Origin: Malacoraja senta
Taxonomy: Eukaryota
Assembly: GCA_038087875.1 (NCBI GenBank)
Contig: CM075990.1
Location: forward strand, 11,472,001-11,536,000
Direction of reading: 5' to 3'
DNA: 64,000 nucleotides
Part shown: piece by piece, positions 12,839-53,354 of the stretch
Layout of the letters: each line of letters begins with the position of its first letter
Numbering within the stretch: position 1 is the first letter of the stretch
Notes under the pieces: generated by a model
Told to the model about the DNA's origin: nothing
Databases searched by the model: none
The model's input: only the letters and a program-made list of their open reading frames with translations
Position numbers and translations under genes: made by a program

Positions 12839-12935
12839 ACAACTTGCTCTATTTGAACTTATTTGATTGTGCACGCCAGGTTGATTGCATTCGTCGAAAC
12901 AGGGTGGACCCATGAAGGTTGCAATCTCCCATCCC
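12839..12935 (-). mobile_element. Short retroposon (Ingi/Vingi-like non-autonomous), 3'-truncated copy
   Basis: Near-identical to 52844-52937 in reverse complement. Confidence 0.7.
12883..12935 (-). ncRNA. Minimal HDV-like ribozyme (degenerate copy)
   Basis: Minus strand reads GGGATGG-GA-GATTGCA-ACC-TTCATG-GGT-CCACCCT-G-TTTCGA-CGAA-TGCAATC, i.e. P1/P2/P3/L3/J4-2 nested double-pseudoknot order with a G1-U wobble. Confidence 0.75.
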
Positions 12936-28956: not shown

Positions 28957-31900
28957 ATAATAATAACAATAATAATAATAATAATATATTTTATTGTCAT
29001 TGCACGTCAGTGCAACGAGATTTAGTATGCAGCTCCACCGATGTACAAGAAAAGTAAGATAAATAAATAAGCAAGCTGAGTGACGTGACCATCCGAGGGA
29101 GACTGTCCAGGGGGGGTGGGTGGGGGGGGGCACTCAGCAGGGCCGGTTCAGAGCCGCTATAGCTCTTGGAATAAAGCTGTTTCTGAGTCTGGAGGTTCGG
29201 GCGTAGAAGGCCTTGTAACATCTGCCGGAGGGAAGTAGTTCAAGCAGTCCGTTACAAGGGTGTGATGAGTCCTTATGGATGCTGACGGCCTTCCTGAGGC
29301 ACCGTGTGTGGTAGATGCCCTCCAAGGCTGGTAGCTGTGTCCCAATGATCCTCTGCGCTCTGTGGACGACGTGCTGAAGAGCTCTTCTCTCCGCCTCCGT
29401 GCAGCTGAGATACCACACAGAGATGCCATACGTTAATATGCTCTCTGTGGTGTAGCGGTAGAACGTTGTCAGCAGCTGTTGGGGCAGACCAGTCTTTTTT
29501 AATGTCCTCAGAGAGAACATTTGTTGCTGTGCCTTCTTGACCAGCGCAGCGGTGTTGGTGGACCATGTGAGGTCCTCTGAAATGTGAGTGCCCAGAAACT
29601 TAAAGCTGGACACTCTCTCCACACTTTCCCCGTAAATGGAGATTGGGGCGTATTCTCCATTATGGGACCTCCTGAAGTCAATACTCAGCTCCTTGGTCTT
29701 GGAGGTGTTTAGTGACAAGTTGTTATGAGCGCACCAGTCCGCCAGGTTCTGCACCTCCGCTCTGTATTTTGTTTCATCACCGTTGGTGATCAGCCCAATC
29801 ACTGTTGTGTCGTCTGCAAACTTCACGATGGTGTTGGTGTCGAATGCAGGGACACAGTCGTGAGTGAAGAGGGAGTAGAGCATGGGGCTTAGTACACAGC
29901 CCTGTGGTGTGCCGTGCTCAGGGTGATAGTGGAGGACAGGTGCGGGCCCAGTCTCACTGCCTGCGGTCGCTCCGTCAGAAAGTTCAGGATCCAATCACAT
30001 ATCGGCGAGCTGAGGCTTAGCTGGTGGAGTTTGGTGGTGAGCTTGGTGGGGATGACCGTATTGAATGCAGAGCTATAGTCAATGAAGAGCATCCTCACAT
30101 ACGTGCCCTGTCTGTCCAGGTGAGTCAGGACAGTGTGAAGAGCCAGAGAGATGGCATCCTCTGTTGATCTATTTGCCCTGTATGCAAATTGATGGGAGTC
30201 CAGTGAGGCAGGGATGCTGGATTTGATATGGGAGAGGACCAGCCTTTCGAAGCACTTCATTGGATTGGAGTTAGGGCAACCGGGCGGTAGTCGTTCAGGT
30301 TGGTGACTTTTTCGGCACCGGCACTATGGTGGCTGTTTTCAGGCACTTGGGGACCGTTGCCAGAGATAGAGACAGATTGAAGATTCTCGTGAATACTTCC
30401 GCCAGCTGTACAGCACAGTCCTTTAGTACCCTTCCCTGGACTCCATCCGGGCCTGCAGCCTTGCGTGGATTGATCCTACGCAGAGCGCACTGTACCTCCT
30501 GGGTGCTCAGTGTTAAGGCTGTCCCTCCGCCATGGCCGGGGTTATTCCACTCCTGGTGGGGTTGCCAGTTTCGAACCGGGCAAAGAAGGTGTTTAGTTCG
30601 TTGGCCAGTGTGATATCACCGTGGGGGCAGGCAGGGCTGCTCTTGTAGTCAGTGATGTCCCCGACACCCTGCCACATGCTTCTGGTGTCCGCGGTGTTGA
30701 AGTGGTCTTCTACCCGTTGCCTGTGGACGTCTTTGGCTTTTTTTATGCCTCTGTTCAGGTTCGACCTGGCCGCACTGTAAGCAGAAGTGTCACTGGATTT
30801 AAAGGCATTGTTGTGTGCCCTAAGCATATCCTGAACCTCCTTGTTCATCCAGGGTTTCCGGTTTGGGAACATCTTTATTTGCTTGTCCACTGTGACAGTC
30901 TCCACACAGCAGTTGATGTAGGAGAGCACAGTGGATGTGTACTCCTCCAAGTCTACCTCTGTACCACTGGTAGCCTGTTGTGCAAACAGGTCCCAGTCGG
31001 TGCGATCAAAGCAGTCCTGGAGTTGTAGGGTGGCGTCCTCGGTCCATATTTTGACCGTCCTTATTGCAGGTTTGGTCTTGCGGATGACGGGTTTGTATGC
31101 AGGCAGTATAAACAGTGAGAGGTGATCGGATTGTCCCAGGGATGGGCGGGGGAGAGCTCTGTATGGGTCCTTGATGTTGGTGTACACTTTATCCAACGTG
31201 TTTGAGCCCCTGGTAGGGCACTGCACATGCTGGTGGAATTTGCGGAGTGTGGCTCGTAGGTCGACCTGGTTAAAGTCCCCTGCAACAATGAAGGCACCGT
31301 CGGGGTGAGCATCCTGCTGCTGACTGATGGCCGAGTGCAGCTGTGCTAGAGCTAGGTTAGCATTAGCCTGTGGTGGGATGTATATGGCCATGATGATAAC
31401 CACCGTAAACTCCCGAGGCAGGTAAAACGGCCTACATTTAAGCAGTAGGTATTCCAGGTCTGGGGAACAGTAGCTCTCTACTGCAGTGTGGTTGGTGCAC
31501 CAGTCATTGTTGATGTAGATGCAGAGCCCGCCACCCTTGCTCTTACCGGAGTCCTTTGTTCTATCAGCACCATGCAGTGACCGGTTGGTCAGGTCCACAG
31601 CCCCATCGGGAACCAGCGCGCTGAGCCAGGTCTCTGTGAACATCAGCACACAGAGATCGCTGGGTGTTGGTCCAGAGCCTTACCTCATCCATCTTGTTGG
31701 TGAGTGACCGGACATTCGCGAGGAAGACGCTTGGTAGCGATGGTCTTTGTGGAGCCCTCCGTAGCCTGTCCTGCACCCCCGCTCGCTTTCCACGTTTCTG
31801 CTTTCGCTCCCGGCGCTTGCTCCATCTCCTACCCTCCGGAGTGGTGATCCAGGGGGGCTGTTCTGCCCAGCTCCCTCGGGATTGTGGTAAGGGTGCTGTA

Positions 31901-32190
31901 GTACTCGCAAGCCAGTTTCTCGCAGCCACGTCCGATGTTGAGCAGTTCCGTGCGGCTCCATGTGCGACCCGTCGGGATTGCGATGCGGGTCCTGGATTTC
32001 CTCGTCCTGTAGGTGAGTTTCTTCTTATGGTTCCTGGGCTTTTCTGGGGTTCCTGGGGTTTCTAGGGGCTCTAGGGGTTCTGAGGTTTTTAATTACCTTG
32101 TCTTTCCAGCCGCGTTCGGTACCGGGCTGCTCCGAGTTAACTCGGACGTGGGAGCGCAAAGCCGCTGCGTCTGAACGCACCGCCATCTTC
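28957..32190 (-). mobile_element. Near full-length Rex1/Babar-clade LINE inserted in an HE1 SINE
   Basis: 5' end GAAGATGGCG; basic leader; APE endonuclease (LANVRSL, FTETWL, GGGLCIY, AGDFN, TLDKVY, SDH); RT ([25 protein letters not shown]); (TAT)n tail. The SINE halves at ~28800-28956 and 32191-32300 rejoin across it. Confidence 0.95.
29134..31929 (-). pseudogene. Rex1 APE-RT ORF, disrupted
   Basis: Split over ORFs 31564-31929, 30513-31649, 29889-30260 and 29134-29994 by frameshifts or stops. Confidence 0.9.
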
Positions 32191-43605: not shown

Positions 43606-45128
43606 TAATGCACAGGCAGATTTCATCCTTTCCCTTCTTAACTGTGGCAATCATGGTTGAGACCCAGTCGGTGGGGTTGCTGACTGCTTCAATTACGCCT
43701 TTGGAGACCATGTCCTTCAGCATAGAGTGAACCCTGCCAGTTATGGCAAATGACAATCGGTGCGGGGGTCGGATTACGGGTGTCACATCGGGGTCAGTAA
43801 TAATCTTGTAGGACACAGGCAACTTGCCTAGGTTGTTGTCGAAGAGACCAGGGAATTCATTCAGTGGATCAAAAGAAACTTGCAGTTTGTGGACAGTTTT
43901 ATCAAAGGAAATCAGCCCCAGTTCCTGACGCACGATTGCCAAGCAGAGTAACTGAATTAAAGTTCAACACGTAGAAGGTCAATTCCCTCGTTGTTTTCTT
44001 CAGTACACATTTCAAGTTGGTTTTGCCCAGAGGAACCAGCACCTCCCCTCCAAAAGCATGTAAAGTGGACGCGTCCTTGACAAGTGGCTCGCTAGCTCTA
44101 ATCTTGTTAAAAAGGTTGATTGACATTGTGTTGACCTTCGCGCCCGTATCCAATTTTGCGCCAAAAACAACATTGTTTACAGGTATCGTCACTGTAGGAT
44201 CAGAATTCTTGGCAGCAGCATGCTGTAACGTGTAAACAGTTGGGTCATCTTGCGAGTTAATTGGAATGTATTCGGGGGCGGCTTCGAGCTGGAGATGGGG
44301 AGGCAGTATGTTGCTGTCTCATTGCAAAAAATTGAGATTAGACTTGGGACTGGGCGCATTCTTTCCTCGGGCCCTGATTGCAGCCCGACAGACTGAGGCA
44401 AAGTGATTTAGCTTTTGCAGTAATTACAAGCCTTCCCGAGGGTGGGGCAGGTGGATTGCCTGTTGTGTAGATAGCCACAGTTAGGACATTTCTGCGGAGG
44501 ACCGCTGAGAACTGCCTGGCTAGCTTGGGTCATAAATCGGCTGTGGGGCCCGTCAGATTGATGGTATTGCTTTCATGCGAATGTCTATGGGATCGACAAG
44601 TTTGGCTGTTCTACATGCATGCACCGCTTCCTCGAGCGATAACTCTGGCTGTCTCAGGAGCTCTGATCACTAAAATATCCCTCGTTAACTGATCAGTCAA
44701 CTGATGAACCAGCATTTCCTGGAATCGGCAACGTTGGGCTAAATACATTAAAGACAAAATAAATGAGTCAACTCGTTCCCCGGGAAGTTGACGACGAGAG
44801 GAAAACCTTGCCCTGTCCAAAATGTGATTTGAGGGCAGGTCACAGATCTGGCCTAGTTTTCGCAGCAAAACATTAGGGTCAGTAGGAGACTCCGCCGGTG
44901 TAATTACCTGGTCATCACGGATAGCCGGAGCATAATGGAATGTTCTGGATCGATGAAAGGGTACCTGGGCCCGCAAGGTTGAGCAGGAGAGAGGCCTTGA
45001 CAGCATCTGGTTCATTTCGGTGTACAATGTTCATGTAGTGCTGGGTAATCAATTTCAAACGTGGCCCAGCTTTCGCTGATATCCGCATCAAAGACAAGAG
45101 GCTTAGGCTTTCGACAAGAAGAAGCCAT
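43603..45128 (-). pseudogene. Mag-type gag-protease-RT N-terminus, frameshifted, inverted relative to the LTRs
   Basis: ATG at 45128 (MASSCRKPKPLVFDADISESWATF..ASLLLNLAGP); RRQLPGERVDSFI; tandem Zn knuckles (CPNCGYLH..C, CNYC..NHFASVC, ~44390-44492); protease LDTGA; RT start (GVIEAVSNPTDWVS...ICLCINP). Confidence 0.9.
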
Positions 45129-45193
45129 CGTAAAGTAAAGCAAAACTCACAAAAGATAAAATAAAAACCGTTATACAAGAGGAGTGGATAGGA

Positions 45194-45208
45194 CCACTTC
45201 TGACGCCA
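45194..45208 (-). promoter_or_regulatory. Second, inverted PBS
   Basis: Minus strand ACA-TGGCGTCAGAAGTGG, followed by the leader and gag ATG. Confidence 0.85.
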
Positions 45209-48200
45209 TGTTCTACTGGCCCGGAATGGCCATGTACATCCGGGACCGCGTAGCCTCCTGCCCCATTTGCAACAATCTTGTGCCTCATCAGCAGCGGCAA
45301 CCCCTTCTGCAACAACCTCCACCAGCACTGCCTTGGTCGTCGCTGGCTGCGGACATTTTCGAATGGTGCGGTAAGCACTACCTTGTTCTGGTCGACTCTT
45401 TTTCCAACTGGTTTGAACTTGACCAACTGACCTCCCTCACGTCTGAGATGGTCATCAAGAAGCTGAAAAGACCCTTCTCAGCCTATGGCGCTCCTGTCAT
45501 CCTGAGAACCGACAACGGTCGACAGTTCACCAGCCACTTGTTCAAGCTTTTCGCAGACCGATGGAACTTCCAGCACGTCACAAGCAGTCCCGAGTATCCA
45601 CAGAGTAATGGACTCGCTGAACGCGCTGTCAGAAGCGCCAAGCACTTGCTGGAGGGAGCGCGCATTTCAAAGTCAGACGTCTATCTCGATCTCCTGAATC
45701 TCAGAAACATCGCCAGAGACGGAACCTTGGGGTCACCAGCGCAGCGTCTGCTGTCGAGGGTGACGAGGTCTCCAGTCCCCATTGCACAACAGCAGCTGGT
45801 CCCTCGGGTGTTGAAGCCCGCCACTGTCCAGCAACGTCTCCAAGAGAAGCACGACATCCAGAAACGGTCATACGACAGTTCCAGCAGACCACTCCAGCCT
45901 CTACTGCCGGGCCAGGTCGTCCGTCTACGAACTTCAACTGGACATTCTCGTCTGGGCATTGTTTTTTTATTAGAAGTTAATACAATACAAAACAATACAA
46001 AGTCATAACGTAATGCATTCTATGTACAACCTCTAGTTTTATGTTTTTGAAAAGGAGGTAAAAAATAAAAAAAAAGAAAGAAAAAAATAGAGAAAAGAAA
46101 GAGGAAAAATAAATAGTAGAAAATAGAAAAACGTGAAGTGTGTATATAAGAAAAGAAAAAATAGAAAGTAGAAATAGTAGAAAAAGACCCTTAAAAAAGA
46201 AATTTTCAAATCTTTGTTTGGAGATGTAAATCTATCCACGACCTGACCTGAAATCAGTAATCTTTACGGTACTGCTGCATCACATGATTCCAAAAAGTCG
46301 ATGAAAGGTGACCAACTCCTTAAGAATTGGTCATATTTATCTATTAGGCGGTCTCATTTCTTCAAGGTGTGCTATGTCCGTCATATTCCTAATCCACATT
46401 TTAATAGTTGGTATAGCTGTATTTTTCCAAAATTTAAGTATCAATTTCTTTCCAATTATTAACCCATAATTAAAGAATACTTTTTGGTCTTTGTTTAAAT
46501 TGATATCTTCTAATATTATTCCAAATATAATCCATTCCATATTAGGTTCTATTCTTGACTTGAAGAGCTTTGTAAATATATCAAATATATCGCTCCAAAA
46601 TGTATTCAACTTTGTACATCCTACAAATGAATGTGTTATATTGGCATTTTGAAACAAACATTTATCGCATCTGGGAGAGACATTTGGGTAAAATTTATTC
46701 AACCTCGTTTTTGAATAATATAGTCTATGTAATAATTTAAATTGAATTAAATTATGTCTTGCATTAATGGAACAATTATGTGTATTCATCAGATACTTTT
46801 CCCATCTATCTTTCGGGATCTTTATCATTAGTTCATGTTCCCAATCTTCTCTTAGTGCCTCTGTTGAGGGTAATTCTCTATTTAATATACTATTATAAAA
46901 ATATGATATTAGTTTTTGTGAATCAGCCTTAATATTCATTGCTTCTTCTAAAGGGTCTAAAAATATAGTTTGAAATCTATGTATATATTTCTTCATAAAG
47001 TCACATATCTGTATATATTTAAAATATTGATTATCATTCAGTTTAAATTTTAATTTTAATTGTTGAAATGATAACAATTTGCCCAGTTCATACATATCTC
47101 CTACTTTCCTAATCCCCAATCTATCCCATTGTTAATATGTTTTATCGATAAGAGATGGTTTGAATGCAGGATTATTCAGAATTGGGGTTAATACTGATAG
47201 ATTATTTAATTTCAAGGATAATTTTATTTGTTTCCAAATTCTTATTGTATTGTGAATAATTGGGTTCTTCTTATATATTATACTATTCAATTTTATTGGT
47301 GAGAACAAGATCGTTCCTATATCGTACGGGAAACACTCCTCTTTTTCCATTCTTATCCACTCCGACTGGTGAGTTGAACTATCCAACCAGTACATTATGT
47401 TCTTAATATGCACTGCCCAGTAGTAATACGTAAAGTTAGGTGGTGATAAACCCCCAGCTTCTTTAGGTTTACACAAATGCTTTCGTTGAATTCTGTGTGC
47501 TCTATAATCCCATATAAAATTAGTGATATTAGAATCTAGTTTTTTGAAAAAATATTTCGGAATATATATTGGGATCGCTTGAAACAAATATATTAATTGT
47601 GGTAAGAAAGTCATTTTTATAGCGTTAATTCTACCTATCAATGAGAGTGGGAGCGTTTTCCAAAATTTAATCATAACATTCAATTTATTTAATAGTGGCA
47701 TAAAATTGGCGCTAAATAATGATTTGTGTCTTCTCGTAATTTGAATACCTAAATACTTGAATTTTTCTGTTGCAATTTTGAAAGGGAATTTTAATAAGTG
47801 TCTCGCATCCTGTGGTTTTGAAGACATGATTTCGCTTTTATTCCAATTTATTCTATATCCTGAAAAAGAACCAAATTCCTCAATTAGTGTTAATAAGGTG
47901 GGAATACTCGTTTGTGTATTAGTAATATATAAAAGAATATCATCAGCATATAATGAAATTTTATTCTTTGAGTCCTTGGTATTATATCCGTGAATATTCG
48001 GATGATTTCTAATCCTTTCAGCCAGCGGTTCTATCATAAGGGCAAATAGCAATGGTGACAAGGCACAACCCTGCCTATTACCCCTTGATAAATAACATTT
48101 TGAAGATAACATATTGTTAGTTAATATTCTTGCCGTAGGTTTATCATAAAGTAGTTTAACCCATCTAATAAAATTCTCTCCCGTATTAAATTTTTTGAGT

Positions 48201-48825
48201 ACCTTATATAAATACTGCCATTCTACCGGATCAAATGCCTTCTCTGCATCCAGCGTAACGACTGAAATATCTTCAATGTCCTCTTTGTGAGAGTACATTA
48301 TATTGAAAAGCCTTCTCAAGTTATTAAATGATTGTCTTTTGGGTATAAATCCCGTTTGATCCGGGTTTACCAATTTATTAATATAATTATTCAGTCTTCT
48401 TGCTAGAATCTTTGCTAAAATTTTCTGATCGCATTGTTGTACGCCCGACTGATGAGCCACGATCGTACCTTGTGGACTGTGAGGGAGCGGTATACCGGAG
48501 AAGTCGACAGCACCTGCTTGCTGTGAAGGAGCCCCGACCACCGCCTGCTGATCCCTATGCTCCGCCGCTCCAGTTCCAGCCACCTTTTGCAGTGTCTCCC
48601 GCCCGTCCCCGCATGCCTTGCTCCCCCTCACGTCCCTCGGTCTCCACTAACCACGGGGTTCCACCTACCGCATGTTTCCCCTCTCGTTCACCACAAGCCT
48701 CTCCCGTGCGATTTTCACCTTCAGCCTCTCCGCCTAATCCTTCAGTGGAGGGAGGGGATGGTTGGGTCCGCACGTGCTCGGGCCGTGTTAGTAGACCACC
48801 AGACAGGTATGGCGAGTATGTTTAA
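45205..48825 (+). pseudogene. Gypsy integrase, N-truncated, split by L1
   Basis: YWPGM..CPIC, ADIFE, LVLVDSFS, TDNGRQF, PQSNGLAER. After removing the L1 it continues GIVVRPTDEPRSYLV..RRSRQHL..RTCSGRVSRPPDRY. Confidence 0.92.
45962..48430 (-). mobile_element. L1-clade LINE, 5'-truncated (ORF2 RT plus C-terminal Cys domain, 3' UTR, poly-A)
   Basis: DQTGFIP, LDAEKAFD, RQGCALSPLLF, YADD, KYLGI and CDKC..HSFVGC; one in-frame stop at 47132-47134; TSD GCATTG(TT) at 45956 and 48431. Confidence 0.95.
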
Positions 48826-52118: not shown

Positions 52119-52297
52119 TTTTGCAGTTTTTTTACCTCCAGATATACATCCTAGTGACTCGCTTACTTTCATTCTGGCCTTATTAAACTGTTACTTCTTC
52201 CATTGTTTTATGTATCGTGCTCCAGATCCATTCAGTCGTTAACCCCATTTACATTCTTGTATTCCTAATACTGCTCTCTCACTAACTTGATATCCTA

Positions 52298-52824
52298 CGA
52301 CTCAAACGACTCCAACTGGTCCAAAACGCAGCCGCTCGACTCATTACCCACACCAAATCCTGGCACCACATCACCCCAGTTCTCAAAGAACTTCACTGGC
52401 TTCCCATTTCCCACCGGATCACCTACAAAATCCTGGTCCTCACCTACAAAGCCCTCAACAACCTGGCCCCCCCTTATCTCATTGACCTCCTCTCCCCCTA
52501 CCAACCCTCACAGTCCCTCAGATCCACATCAGCTGGTCTCCTCTCCACTCCGAAATCAAACCTCTGCACTTTTGGAGGCAGAGCCTTCTCCAGGGCAGCT
52601 CCCAGGCTCTGGAATTCCCTCCCACAACCGGTCCGAAATTCTGAGTCCCTCACCATCTTCCAGTCCCGCCTCAAGACCCATCTCTTCACCTCTGCATACC
52701 CTTAGTCCCATGTTCCCCTCCCCTCTGTCTTACTGCTCTATTTTGTTTTGTTTATTCTTGACTCTCAATGTAAAGCGACTTTGAGTCCTGAAAAGCGCTA
52801 TATAAATAAAATCTATTATTATTA
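52298..52824 (+). mobile_element. L2 LINE 3' fragment
   Basis: A frame not shown in the ORF track reads LQLVQNAAARLI...HITPVLKELHWLP...APRLWNSLP...FQSRLKTHLF; tail GTAAAGCGACTTTGAG..GCGCTATATAAATAAA(TAT)n. Confidence 0.9.
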
Positions 52825-52843
52825 TCCTCTCACCTCTCCATGC

Positions 52844-52976
52844 GGGAGAGTCCAACCTTCACGTGGTCCACCCTGTTTCAACGAATGCAATCAACCTGGC
52901 GTGCACAATCAAATAAGATCAAATAGAACAAGTTGTCCTACAACTTTAGGCTGTGCGCGCCATACGTAAGAAGATT
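52844..52976 (+). mobile_element. Short retroposon (Ingi/Vingi-like non-autonomous) with HDV-like 5' end
   Basis: 9-bp TSD TCTCCATGC (52835-52843, 52977-52985); ends CCATACGTAAGAAGA; internal stem GGCGTGCACA/TGTGCGCGCC. Confidence 0.78.
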
Positions 52977-53354
52977 TCTCCATGCAGCCCTGTGCAGGAA
53001 GTCCACAGGTATTGACTGGGTTCTCAGGCGTTCCAGCAAACTGCTTGTAAGTCGGAAATGAGCTAAAACAGGGCATGGGAGAGGATCACAGAATGGCTGT
53101 GCTGGGAGAGCGATCAAACGCATGAAGAGAGGCCGCCAGCCAGCGTCACTGTCTCTGTGAGTGAGAGAGAGAGCGAGTGAGTGTGCGCTCAATGCCCTCA
53201 GCACTGCTTTGCACAGGGGTGACGGGAGGTAGGGATGTGCGTGAGGGGAATGTCACAAATTCAAACACCCACAGAGCTGTACAGCTACAGCACTGCCATG
53301 GGCCCTTCGGCCCACCTTGTCCATGCTGACCAAATAGGCATATGGGGCTCGTCC

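What the first reader, a model, noticed from the sequence alone, without database searches (positions are those of the whole stretch)
52844..52976. ~135-bp retroposon headed by a minimal HDV-like ribozyme
Seen: a TSD-flanked (TCTCCATGC) 133-bp insertion, with a second copy on the minus strand at 12839-12935. Merging the two gives GGG(G)TGG GA GATTGCA ACC TTCACGT GGT CCACCCT G TTTCGA CGAA TGCAATC. This has a 7-bp P1 opening with a G-U wobble, a perfect 7-bp P2, a 3-bp P3 closing a 7-nt L3, a G for P1.1, a vestigial P4 and J4/2 CGAA carrying the catalytic C. Known: this is the HDV/CPEB3 double-pseudoknot order, and such ribozymes cap R2, RTE and Ingi/L1Tc elements. Inference: a non-tRNA SINE-like family made of little more than ribozyme, stem-loop and an ATACG-(AAG)n tail (Vingi/Ingi-like), cutting itself out of read-through transcripts. 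This copy lacks about 5 nt at the 5' end and has two P2 mismatches; G4 of the consensus is inferred from pairing.
Basis: partly seen in the sequence, partly recalled or inferred. Interest (0 to 1): 0.85.

Follow-up and report, generated by a model that had tools for sequence, protein, structure and literature searches.

The report
Ribozyme-headed mini Vingi retroposon
This 135-letter repeat, present in more than 7,000 copies in an animal genome, is a cut-down version of a larger jumping gene (a LINE, likely of the Vingi kind) and begins with a 54-letter RNA fold predicted to cut itself out of host transcripts; related jumping genes start with the same kind of fold, and one of them is likely the source of the mammalian CPEB3 ribozyme.

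Summary
52844-52976 is one damaged copy of a family with at least 7,027 copies. Most copies start 5 nt further upstream, at a G that opens a complete HDV/CPEB3-type double pseudoknot of 54 nt with no P4; 80 of 87 sampled copies start at nt 1-2. The autonomous partner is in the genome: a ~3.1-kb single-ORF LINE (APE + RT + CCHC, no RNase H; Vingi-like) with the same first 80 nt and last ~35 nt. So this is a short internally deleted LINE (SIDE), not a true SINE; three more such deletions exist. Copies show no compensatory changes, but Vingi-like LINEs from other organisms carry the same fold with different pairs, exactly at their TSD-defined 5' end. A model trained only on four of them ranks this family's heads first. 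One such head passes Rfam's CPEB3 threshold, and the printed 5' end of Vingi-2_Gav nearly equals CPEB3. Cleavage is untested; the window copy itself cannot form P1. Verdict: new variant of a known kind.

The parts
52835..52843 (+). left target-site duplication (9 bp exact; 52832-52843 if 12 bp with two transitions)
52844..52892 (+). HDV-like ribozyme head, family nt 6-54; nt 1-5 missing in this copy. P2 5' 52848-52854 (two mismatches), P3 5' 52855-52857, L3 52858-52864, P3 3' 52865-52867, P1 3' 52868-52874, P1.1 G 52875, 6-nt loop in place of P4 52876-52881, J4/2 52882-52885 with the predicted catalytic C at 52882, P2 3' 52886-52892
   Evidence: sequence; family alignment; descriptor; model trained on foreign heads scores it 16.0 bits
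52893..52919 (+). rest of the LINE-derived 5' part, with the 5' arm (52897-52907) of the predicted end-to-end stem
   Evidence: LINE heads printed; pair counts
52920..52932 (+). 13-nt deletion junction: 8-nt duplication of the preceding word plus 5 filler nt
   Evidence: comparison of LINE and SIDE ends
52933..52967 (+). LINE 3' end: last codons, stop codon TAG at 52947-52949, 18-nt 3' UTR with the 3' arm (52952-52962) of the stem and the ACG motif
52968..52976 (+). (AAG)2 tail; the last 3 nt probably belong to the TSD
   Evidence: tails of other copies
52977..52985 (+). right target-site duplication
12839..12935 (-). second copy, family nt 1-98, 3' part lost; P1 mismatch at nt 4 and shortened L3
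   Evidence: 23.6 bits, best hit in the window

Best explanation
The element is a non-autonomous, internally deleted derivative of a ~3.1-kb single-ORF LINE (likely Vingi clade) that keeps the LINE's first ~80 and last ~35 nt, and its first 54 nt are predicted to fold as a P4-less HDV-like ribozyme that would cut the RNA free just 5' of G1. SHOWN: shared ends with the LINE; sharp 5' ends at G1; 10-14-bp TSDs; (AAG)n tail; the same fold at the TSD-defined 5' end of unrelated Vingi-like LINEs. INFERRED: (1) a copy lying in a host Pol II transcript is transcribed by read-through; (2) the pseudoknot folds and C44 catalyses cleavage, leaving a 5'-OH RNA that starts at G1 whatever the flank; (3) the LINE's APE-RT protein binds the 3' 22-35 nt, nicks DNA and primes reverse transcription at the AAG tail; (4) because the template is so short it is nearly always copied to G1, so each new copy is a complete, promoter-independent unit, which let it outnumber its parent more than tenfold; (5) an 8-bp stem between the two ends, lengthened to 11 bp in the commonest subfamily, may help hold the ends together. 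After insertion copies decay neutrally; the window copy is a dead one.
For: Partner: tail search found ORF-bearing 3' ends; L111-L114 carry head, ORF and tail in order; APE and RT by Pfam; intact relative P0001, 1,019 aa, 72% identical, maps from residue 22 to 1012 on L112; no RNase H in 6 of 6 relatives scanned. 5' ends: in a sample picked by a middle word, 80 of 87 start at nt 1-2 and 85 of 87 at nt 1-5; 54 of the 59 copies with an exact TSD of 9 bp or more (80 examined) have it ending within -3..+2 of G1. Fold: G1-U wobble, 7-bp P1, 7-bp P2, 3-bp P3, L3 and following GU identical to Rfam's CPEB3 consensus; common variants fall at unpaired nt 8, 42, 45 or keep the 5-32 pair. Across families: strict descriptor hits upstream of 6 of 26 Vingi-like ORFs (5 distinct), decoys for the catalytic C 1, 0, 1; 0 of 520 shuffles, 0 of 26 reverse strands, 0 of 26 coding stretches; in 4 of 5 full-length elements tested the left TSD ends within -1..+2 of G1; P1/P3 91% paired, 19 cells changed on both sides, 0 of 500 shuffles reach it. 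A model from four foreign heads scores the 12 family heads given 30.7-39.9 bits against a background of 12.2 or less. P4-less HDV-like ribozymes are active in phages and silkmoth R2 (PMC10879173; PMC3774820).
Against: No cleavage assay. No compensatory change within the family, and paired positions decay like the rest (2.1% vs 2.3%). Only 29 of 87 copies still fit the strict descriptor. Rfam gives the family's own heads no ribozyme match. P1.1 has one pair only and P4 is reduced to 6 nt, which may make it slow. An internal promoter would give equally sharp 5' ends. The descriptor was written after I had seen the family, and it chose the model's training set. 18 of 26 foreign upstream regions gave no hit even with the relaxed descriptor (several are cut short or decayed). 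No tree against named Vingi, Ingi or RTE proteins was made.
Confidence: 0.76

Rival explanations
1. Same SIDE, but the 5' end is set by an internal promoter in the head (as Pr77 of L1Tc also is), and the shrunken ribozyme is slow or vestigial.
For: L1Tc's 77 nt are both promoter and ribozyme (PMC4035085). Sharp starts at G1 fit both. This head has the shortest P4 region of the six compared (7 nt vs 16-30), and the minimum-energy fold without pseudoknots pairs L3/J4/2 otherwise.
Against: Pairing, not sequence, is what is conserved across families; the C of J4/2 is kept while its neighbour varies; the predicted cut site equals the element boundary in four unrelated families.
Confidence: 0.15
2. 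The pseudoknot is kept for a non-catalytic job (5' shield against exonucleases, protein-binding site or IRES-like start for the LINE ORF) and the SIDE only inherits it.
For: Such roles are described for R2 and L1Tc ribozymes (PMC13708176; PMC6765202). An ATG at nt 47-49 is in frame with the LINE ORF.
Against: A purely structural role does not need the catalytic C and J4/2 A, present in all seven distinct foreign heads and in the family. It is compatible with, not exclusive of, cleavage.
Confidence: 0.08
3. A conventional Pol III SINE with a small-RNA head whose resemblance to HDV is accidental.
For: Short length, high copy number, a weak B-box-like word at nt 37-47 (by eye).
Against: The head is the LINE's own 5' end; no tRNA in 7 of 7 loci; 0 of 20,000 shuffles fit the descriptor.
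Confidence: 0.01

Closest known systems
R2 SIDEs of Drosophila (PMC3414825, passages)
   Same: Non-autonomous element made of an HDV-like 5' ribozyme plus the LINE 3' end, moved in trans; there self-cleavage is shown.
   Different: 529 bp, rDNA-specific, RLE-type partner, ribozyme with P4 and long J1/2; here ~135 bp, dispersed, APE-type partner, 54-nt head, thousands of copies.
NARTc / RIME / SIDER of the L1Tc-ingi clade (PMC4035085, part 1 of 7)
   Same: Internally deleted derivatives of an APE-type LINE of the sister clade, headed by a 77-nt HDV-like ribozyme.
   Different: Trypanosomatid; partner has RNase H; head has P4 and is also a promoter.
Bipartite non-autonomous Vingi derivatives (Vingi-1_EE, SINE2-1_ACar; PMC5786205)
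   Same: Vingi is one of four clades reported to give 5'+3' deletion derivatives.
   Different: [quoted passage not shown]
Minimal HDV-like and theta ribozymes (PMC10879173, parts 1-2)
   Same: No P4, about 55 nt, C first in J4/2.
   Different: Found almost only in gut phages next to tRNAs; here in an animal retroposon, with a CPEB3-type L3 and single P1.1 pair.
Mammalian CPEB3 ribozyme (Rfam RF00622)
   Same: Identical L3 and following GU, 7-bp P1, 3-bp P3, CGAA J4/2; a Vingi-like head (L248) passes its gathering score.
   Different: Single-copy, conserved, has P4; this family's P1/P2 sequences differ and do not match the Rfam model.

Membership tests
HDV-like ribozyme | P1 (7 bp, G1-Y), P2, P3 in nested double-pseudoknot order | tested here: met
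   consensus pairs; descriptor; features as listed in PMC6326823
HDV-like ribozyme | L3 with first U and C-G able to form the reverse wobble; P1.1 | tested here: met
   U20, C24, G25, C22-G37; one P1.1 pair only, as in the Rfam CPEB3 consensus
HDV-like ribozyme | Catalytic C opening J4/2 (C-N-R-A) | tested here: met
   C44 in 79 of 85 copies with a base there; nt 45 varies; decoy test in foreign heads
HDV-like ribozyme | Covariation of the helices | tested here: met
   across families; none within the family
HDV-like ribozyme | Match to a curated Rfam HDV-like family | tested here: not met
   no match for the family's heads; Rfam models carry P4 and omit pseudoknots
HDV-like ribozyme | Mg2+-dependent self-cleavage lost on C-to-U | not testable with these tools
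   needs an in vitro assay
SIDE / bipartite non-autonomous LINE | 5' and 3' ends both from one LINE, no ORF | tested here: met
SIDE / bipartite non-autonomous LINE | Own amplification with TSDs and LINE-type tail | tested here: met
   TSD found in 76 of 90, 10-14 bp in 62; 7,027 middle-word matches
Vingi clade (partner LINE) | Compact single ORF with APE endonuclease and RT | tested here: met
   definition from PMC13708176
Vingi clade (partner LINE) | No RNase H (unlike Ingi) | tested here: met
Vingi clade (partner LINE) | RT phylogeny with named Vingi elements | not tested
   no named Vingi protein was held; indirect link only: relative L248 has a head 34/36 identical by eye to the printed Vingi-2_Gav 5' end
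SINE proper (Pol III, small-RNA head) | tRNA/5S/7SL-derived head | tested here: not met
   head is LINE-derived

The most novel reading that the evidence does not exclude
Vingi LINEs as a clade are capped by CPEB3-type self-cleaving ribozymes; the mammalian CPEB3 ribozyme is a stranded, domesticated Vingi head; and this family is the stripped-down limit of that design, a ~135-nt promoterless retroposon with an active 54-nt P4-less ribozyme that puts thousands of self-cleaving sites into an animal genome and defines the minimal template (about 80-95 nt 5' plus 22-35 nt 3') for Vingi gene writers.
Probability: 0.55. Interest if true: 0.82.

Novelty: new variant of a known kind. Interest (0 to 1): 0.66.

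Why it matters
It adds Vingi to the LINE clades with a 5' HDV-like ribozyme (not found in print by searches; three key papers and patents could not be read), which fills the one gap in the pattern that clades giving bipartite derivatives are those with ribozymes. It gives P4-less minimal ribozymes, whose roles are described as poorly known, a job in an animal genome. It offers a directly testable origin for the CPEB3 ribozyme (no paper in the library holds both 'CPEB3' and 'Vingi'). Four natural deletions bracket the cis signals needed by Vingi proteins, which are in use as RNA-templated gene writers. About a third of sampled copies keep the whole fold, so host transcripts may carry many cleavage sites.

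Tried and rejected
Rfam on the window and on six family loci gave no ribozyme match for this family. Covariation within the family: none; copies decay neutrally. tRNA head: none in 7 loci. Expression: no RNA holder listed; contigs of four coded organisms laid on an intact copy show the same element boundary and the same variant sites, but contigs cannot show starts or RNA origin. End-to-end pairing in foreign families: duplex predictions for four loci were not informative. One short-protein search of the own genome for further Vingi-like families returned 13 places, all already; no weight is put on it. No intact LINE ORF in the four copies listed. No host gene was recognised among 39 stop-to-stop frames of 130 aa or more in the window, read by eye. 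Ruminski 2011, Kojima 2011 and Webb 2009 are not held; they may already contain Vingi-type heads under other names. The CPEB3 ancestral-reconstruction paper has no occurrence of 'origin', 'retrotranspos' or 'transposable' (PMC8233481). Earlier findings of this scan: nothing.

Full report
1. Observation. The stretch 52844-52976 is flanked by an exact 9-bp duplication and has one relative in the window, 12935-12839 on the minus strand. The window lies in a 1.94-Gb genome and is filled with repeats. The family is large: 2,168 exact matches to 32 nt of the head and 7,027 to a 17-nt middle word, with reversed-pattern controls of 0. The window copy therefore lacks most of P1 and has two P2 mismatches; it is a dead copy, inserted about 20 bp after the tail of an L2-like element (frame 52286-52705; L2 label recalled).

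2. Family anatomy. I sampled the first 90 of 7,027 middle-word matches (all on contig C1) and dropped 3 with duplicated flanks. 80 of 87 start at nt 1-2 and 85 at nt 1-5; only 2 are clearly 5'-truncated. TSDs were found in 76 of 90, mostly 10-14 bp. Among 80 complete copies, 59 have an exact TSD of 9 bp or more and 54 of these end within -3..+2 of G1. The base before G1 is T in 40 of 69 against 28% in flanks (p 2e-7). Mean divergence is about 5%, 3.8% in the commonest subfamily. Contigs of four coded organisms carry the element with the same boundary and variant sites, so it likely predates their split.

3. The head. Nt 1-54 read: P1 7 bp opened by G-U, 2-nt J1/2, P2 7 bp, P3 3 bp, 7-nt L3, one P1.1 pair, a 6-nt loop where P4 would be, J4/2 C-(G/U)-A-A, P2 3' strand. 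These match the fixed features of the HDV descriptor in PMC6326823 (passages); L3 and the GU after P1 equal Rfam's CPEB3 consensus. My descriptor fits 29 of 87 copies, 0 of 87 reverse strands, 0 of 20,000 shuffles and no place in the window. Against: no compensatory change exists within the family and paired positions decay like unpaired ones (2.1% vs 2.3%), as expected of dead-on-arrival copies; Rfam does not match this family's heads.

4. The partner. A tail search that excluded in-register heads exposed 3' ends preceded by coding sequence. Following them gave a LINE with 403 candidate 3' parts and about 30 5' parts. L111-L114 hold head, ORF and tail in order; L111 is TSD-flanked. The ORF has APE endonuclease and RT and ends in a CCHC knuckle, with the stop 18 nt before the AAG tail. 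An intact 1,019-aa relative, 72% identical, covers it end to end; no RNase H was found. Single ORF, APE type and no RNase H is the definition of Vingi in PMC13708176 (passages); no tree was made. The short element is the LINE's first 80 nt, a 13-nt junction and its last 35 nt. Three further independent deletions, each in more than 10 of the 100 rows listed (135 matches), keep 85-95 nt of the 5' end and as little as about 22 nt of the 3' end.

5. Independent test across families. From 77 metagenome loci encoding relatives I took the 26 whose match starts near the N-terminus. The strict descriptor hit 6 (5 distinct), decoys 1, 0 and 1; a relaxed one hit 8 (7 distinct); controls were 0 of 520, 0 of 26 and 0 of 26. 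P1, P2 and P3 differ in sequence and keep pairing; on P1 and P3, 91% of cells pair and 19 change on both sides, above all 500 shuffles and all slid controls, although three rows are off register and the structure came from these sequences. In 4 of 5 full-length elements tested, a 10-14-bp TSD ends within -1..+2 of G1 and the tail is ACG plus a microsatellite, as here (the fifth is cut by its contig start). A covariance model of four foreign heads only scored all 12 family heads given at 30.7-39.9 bits and ranked the two window copies first and second in 64 kb; it also found weak heads before two more foreign ORFs.

6. CPEB3 link. The head of L248 passes Rfam's CPEB3 threshold (55.6 bits, cut-off 35) and is the TSD-defined 5' end of a Vingi-like element. 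The supplement of PMC5786205 prints nt 2-74 of Vingi-2_Gav (passages); by eye it equals the Rfam CPEB3 consensus at 38 of 40 nt from G2 and at the last 14, and the L248 head at 34 of 36. That paper does not call it a ribozyme (section read). The simplest reading is that the CPEB3 ribozyme is a Vingi head; this is inference from two alignments by eye and one Rfam score.

7. Mechanism. Shown: shared ends, sharp starts at G1, TSDs, conserved fold at the element boundary. Inferred from R2 and L1Tc: read-through transcription, self-cleavage 5' of G1, trans recognition of the 3' end, target-primed reverse transcription. The LINE ends share an 8-bp complementarity; the commonest SIDE subfamily has two changes that lengthen it to 11 bp, suggestive only, since the core is a palindrome. 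Rivals are an internal promoter (0.15) and a non-catalytic role (0.08).

8. Novelty. Ribozyme-headed SIDEs, bipartite Vingi derivatives and P4-less ribozymes are each known. Their union, and a ribozyme on Vingi, were not found in nine library searches; Ruminski 2011, Kojima 2011, Webb 2009, their supplements, Repbase and patents were not seen and may bear on this. Other papers seen as passages only: PMC7761336, PMC5753468, PMC3391268, PMC4494074, PMC10919898, PMC8256844. Verdict: new variant of a known kind, interest 0.66.

Noticed in passing
L248:1106-1190 (same element in L249, L250): 5' end of a TSD-flanked Vingi-like LINE passes Rfam's CPEB3 ribozyme threshold; the printed 5' end of Vingi-2_Gav and the Vingi-derived part of SINE2-1_AMi look even closer to CPEB3.
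   Followed up: partly
L033, L117-L122, L130: LINE copies whose 5' part, head included, is inverted next to the 3' part, as in twin priming; 7 of 12 loci that hold both parts are inverted; TSDs frame the unit exactly in 3 of 6 checked and with a mismatch in the other 3.
   Followed up: partly
G000, rows: Three more SIDE families of the same LINE with different junctions; the shortest keeps about 22 nt of the 3' end.
   Followed up: partly
L112:575-700: The LINE frame is open from inside the ribozyme; an ATG at nt 47-49, on the J4/2-P2 border, is in frame with the ORF.
   Followed up: no
family sample L131-L220: T bias at the base before G1 (40 of 69) and frequent 1-nt G overlap between TSD and G1 (16 of 59), pointing to microhomology or an added A at second-strand joining.
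   Followed up: partly
window 52286-52825: 3' end of an L2-like LINE just upstream of the finding (label recalled).
   Followed up: no
window 29134-32061 (-), 43902-48825: Near-complete APE-RT LINE fragments, an LTR-type integrase/gag fragment and an L1/Tx1-like RT fragment among the open frames (labels by eye).
   Followed up: no
L133, L210-L212: Copies cut at nt ~100 with shared flanks, apparently carried inside another repeat.
   Followed up: no
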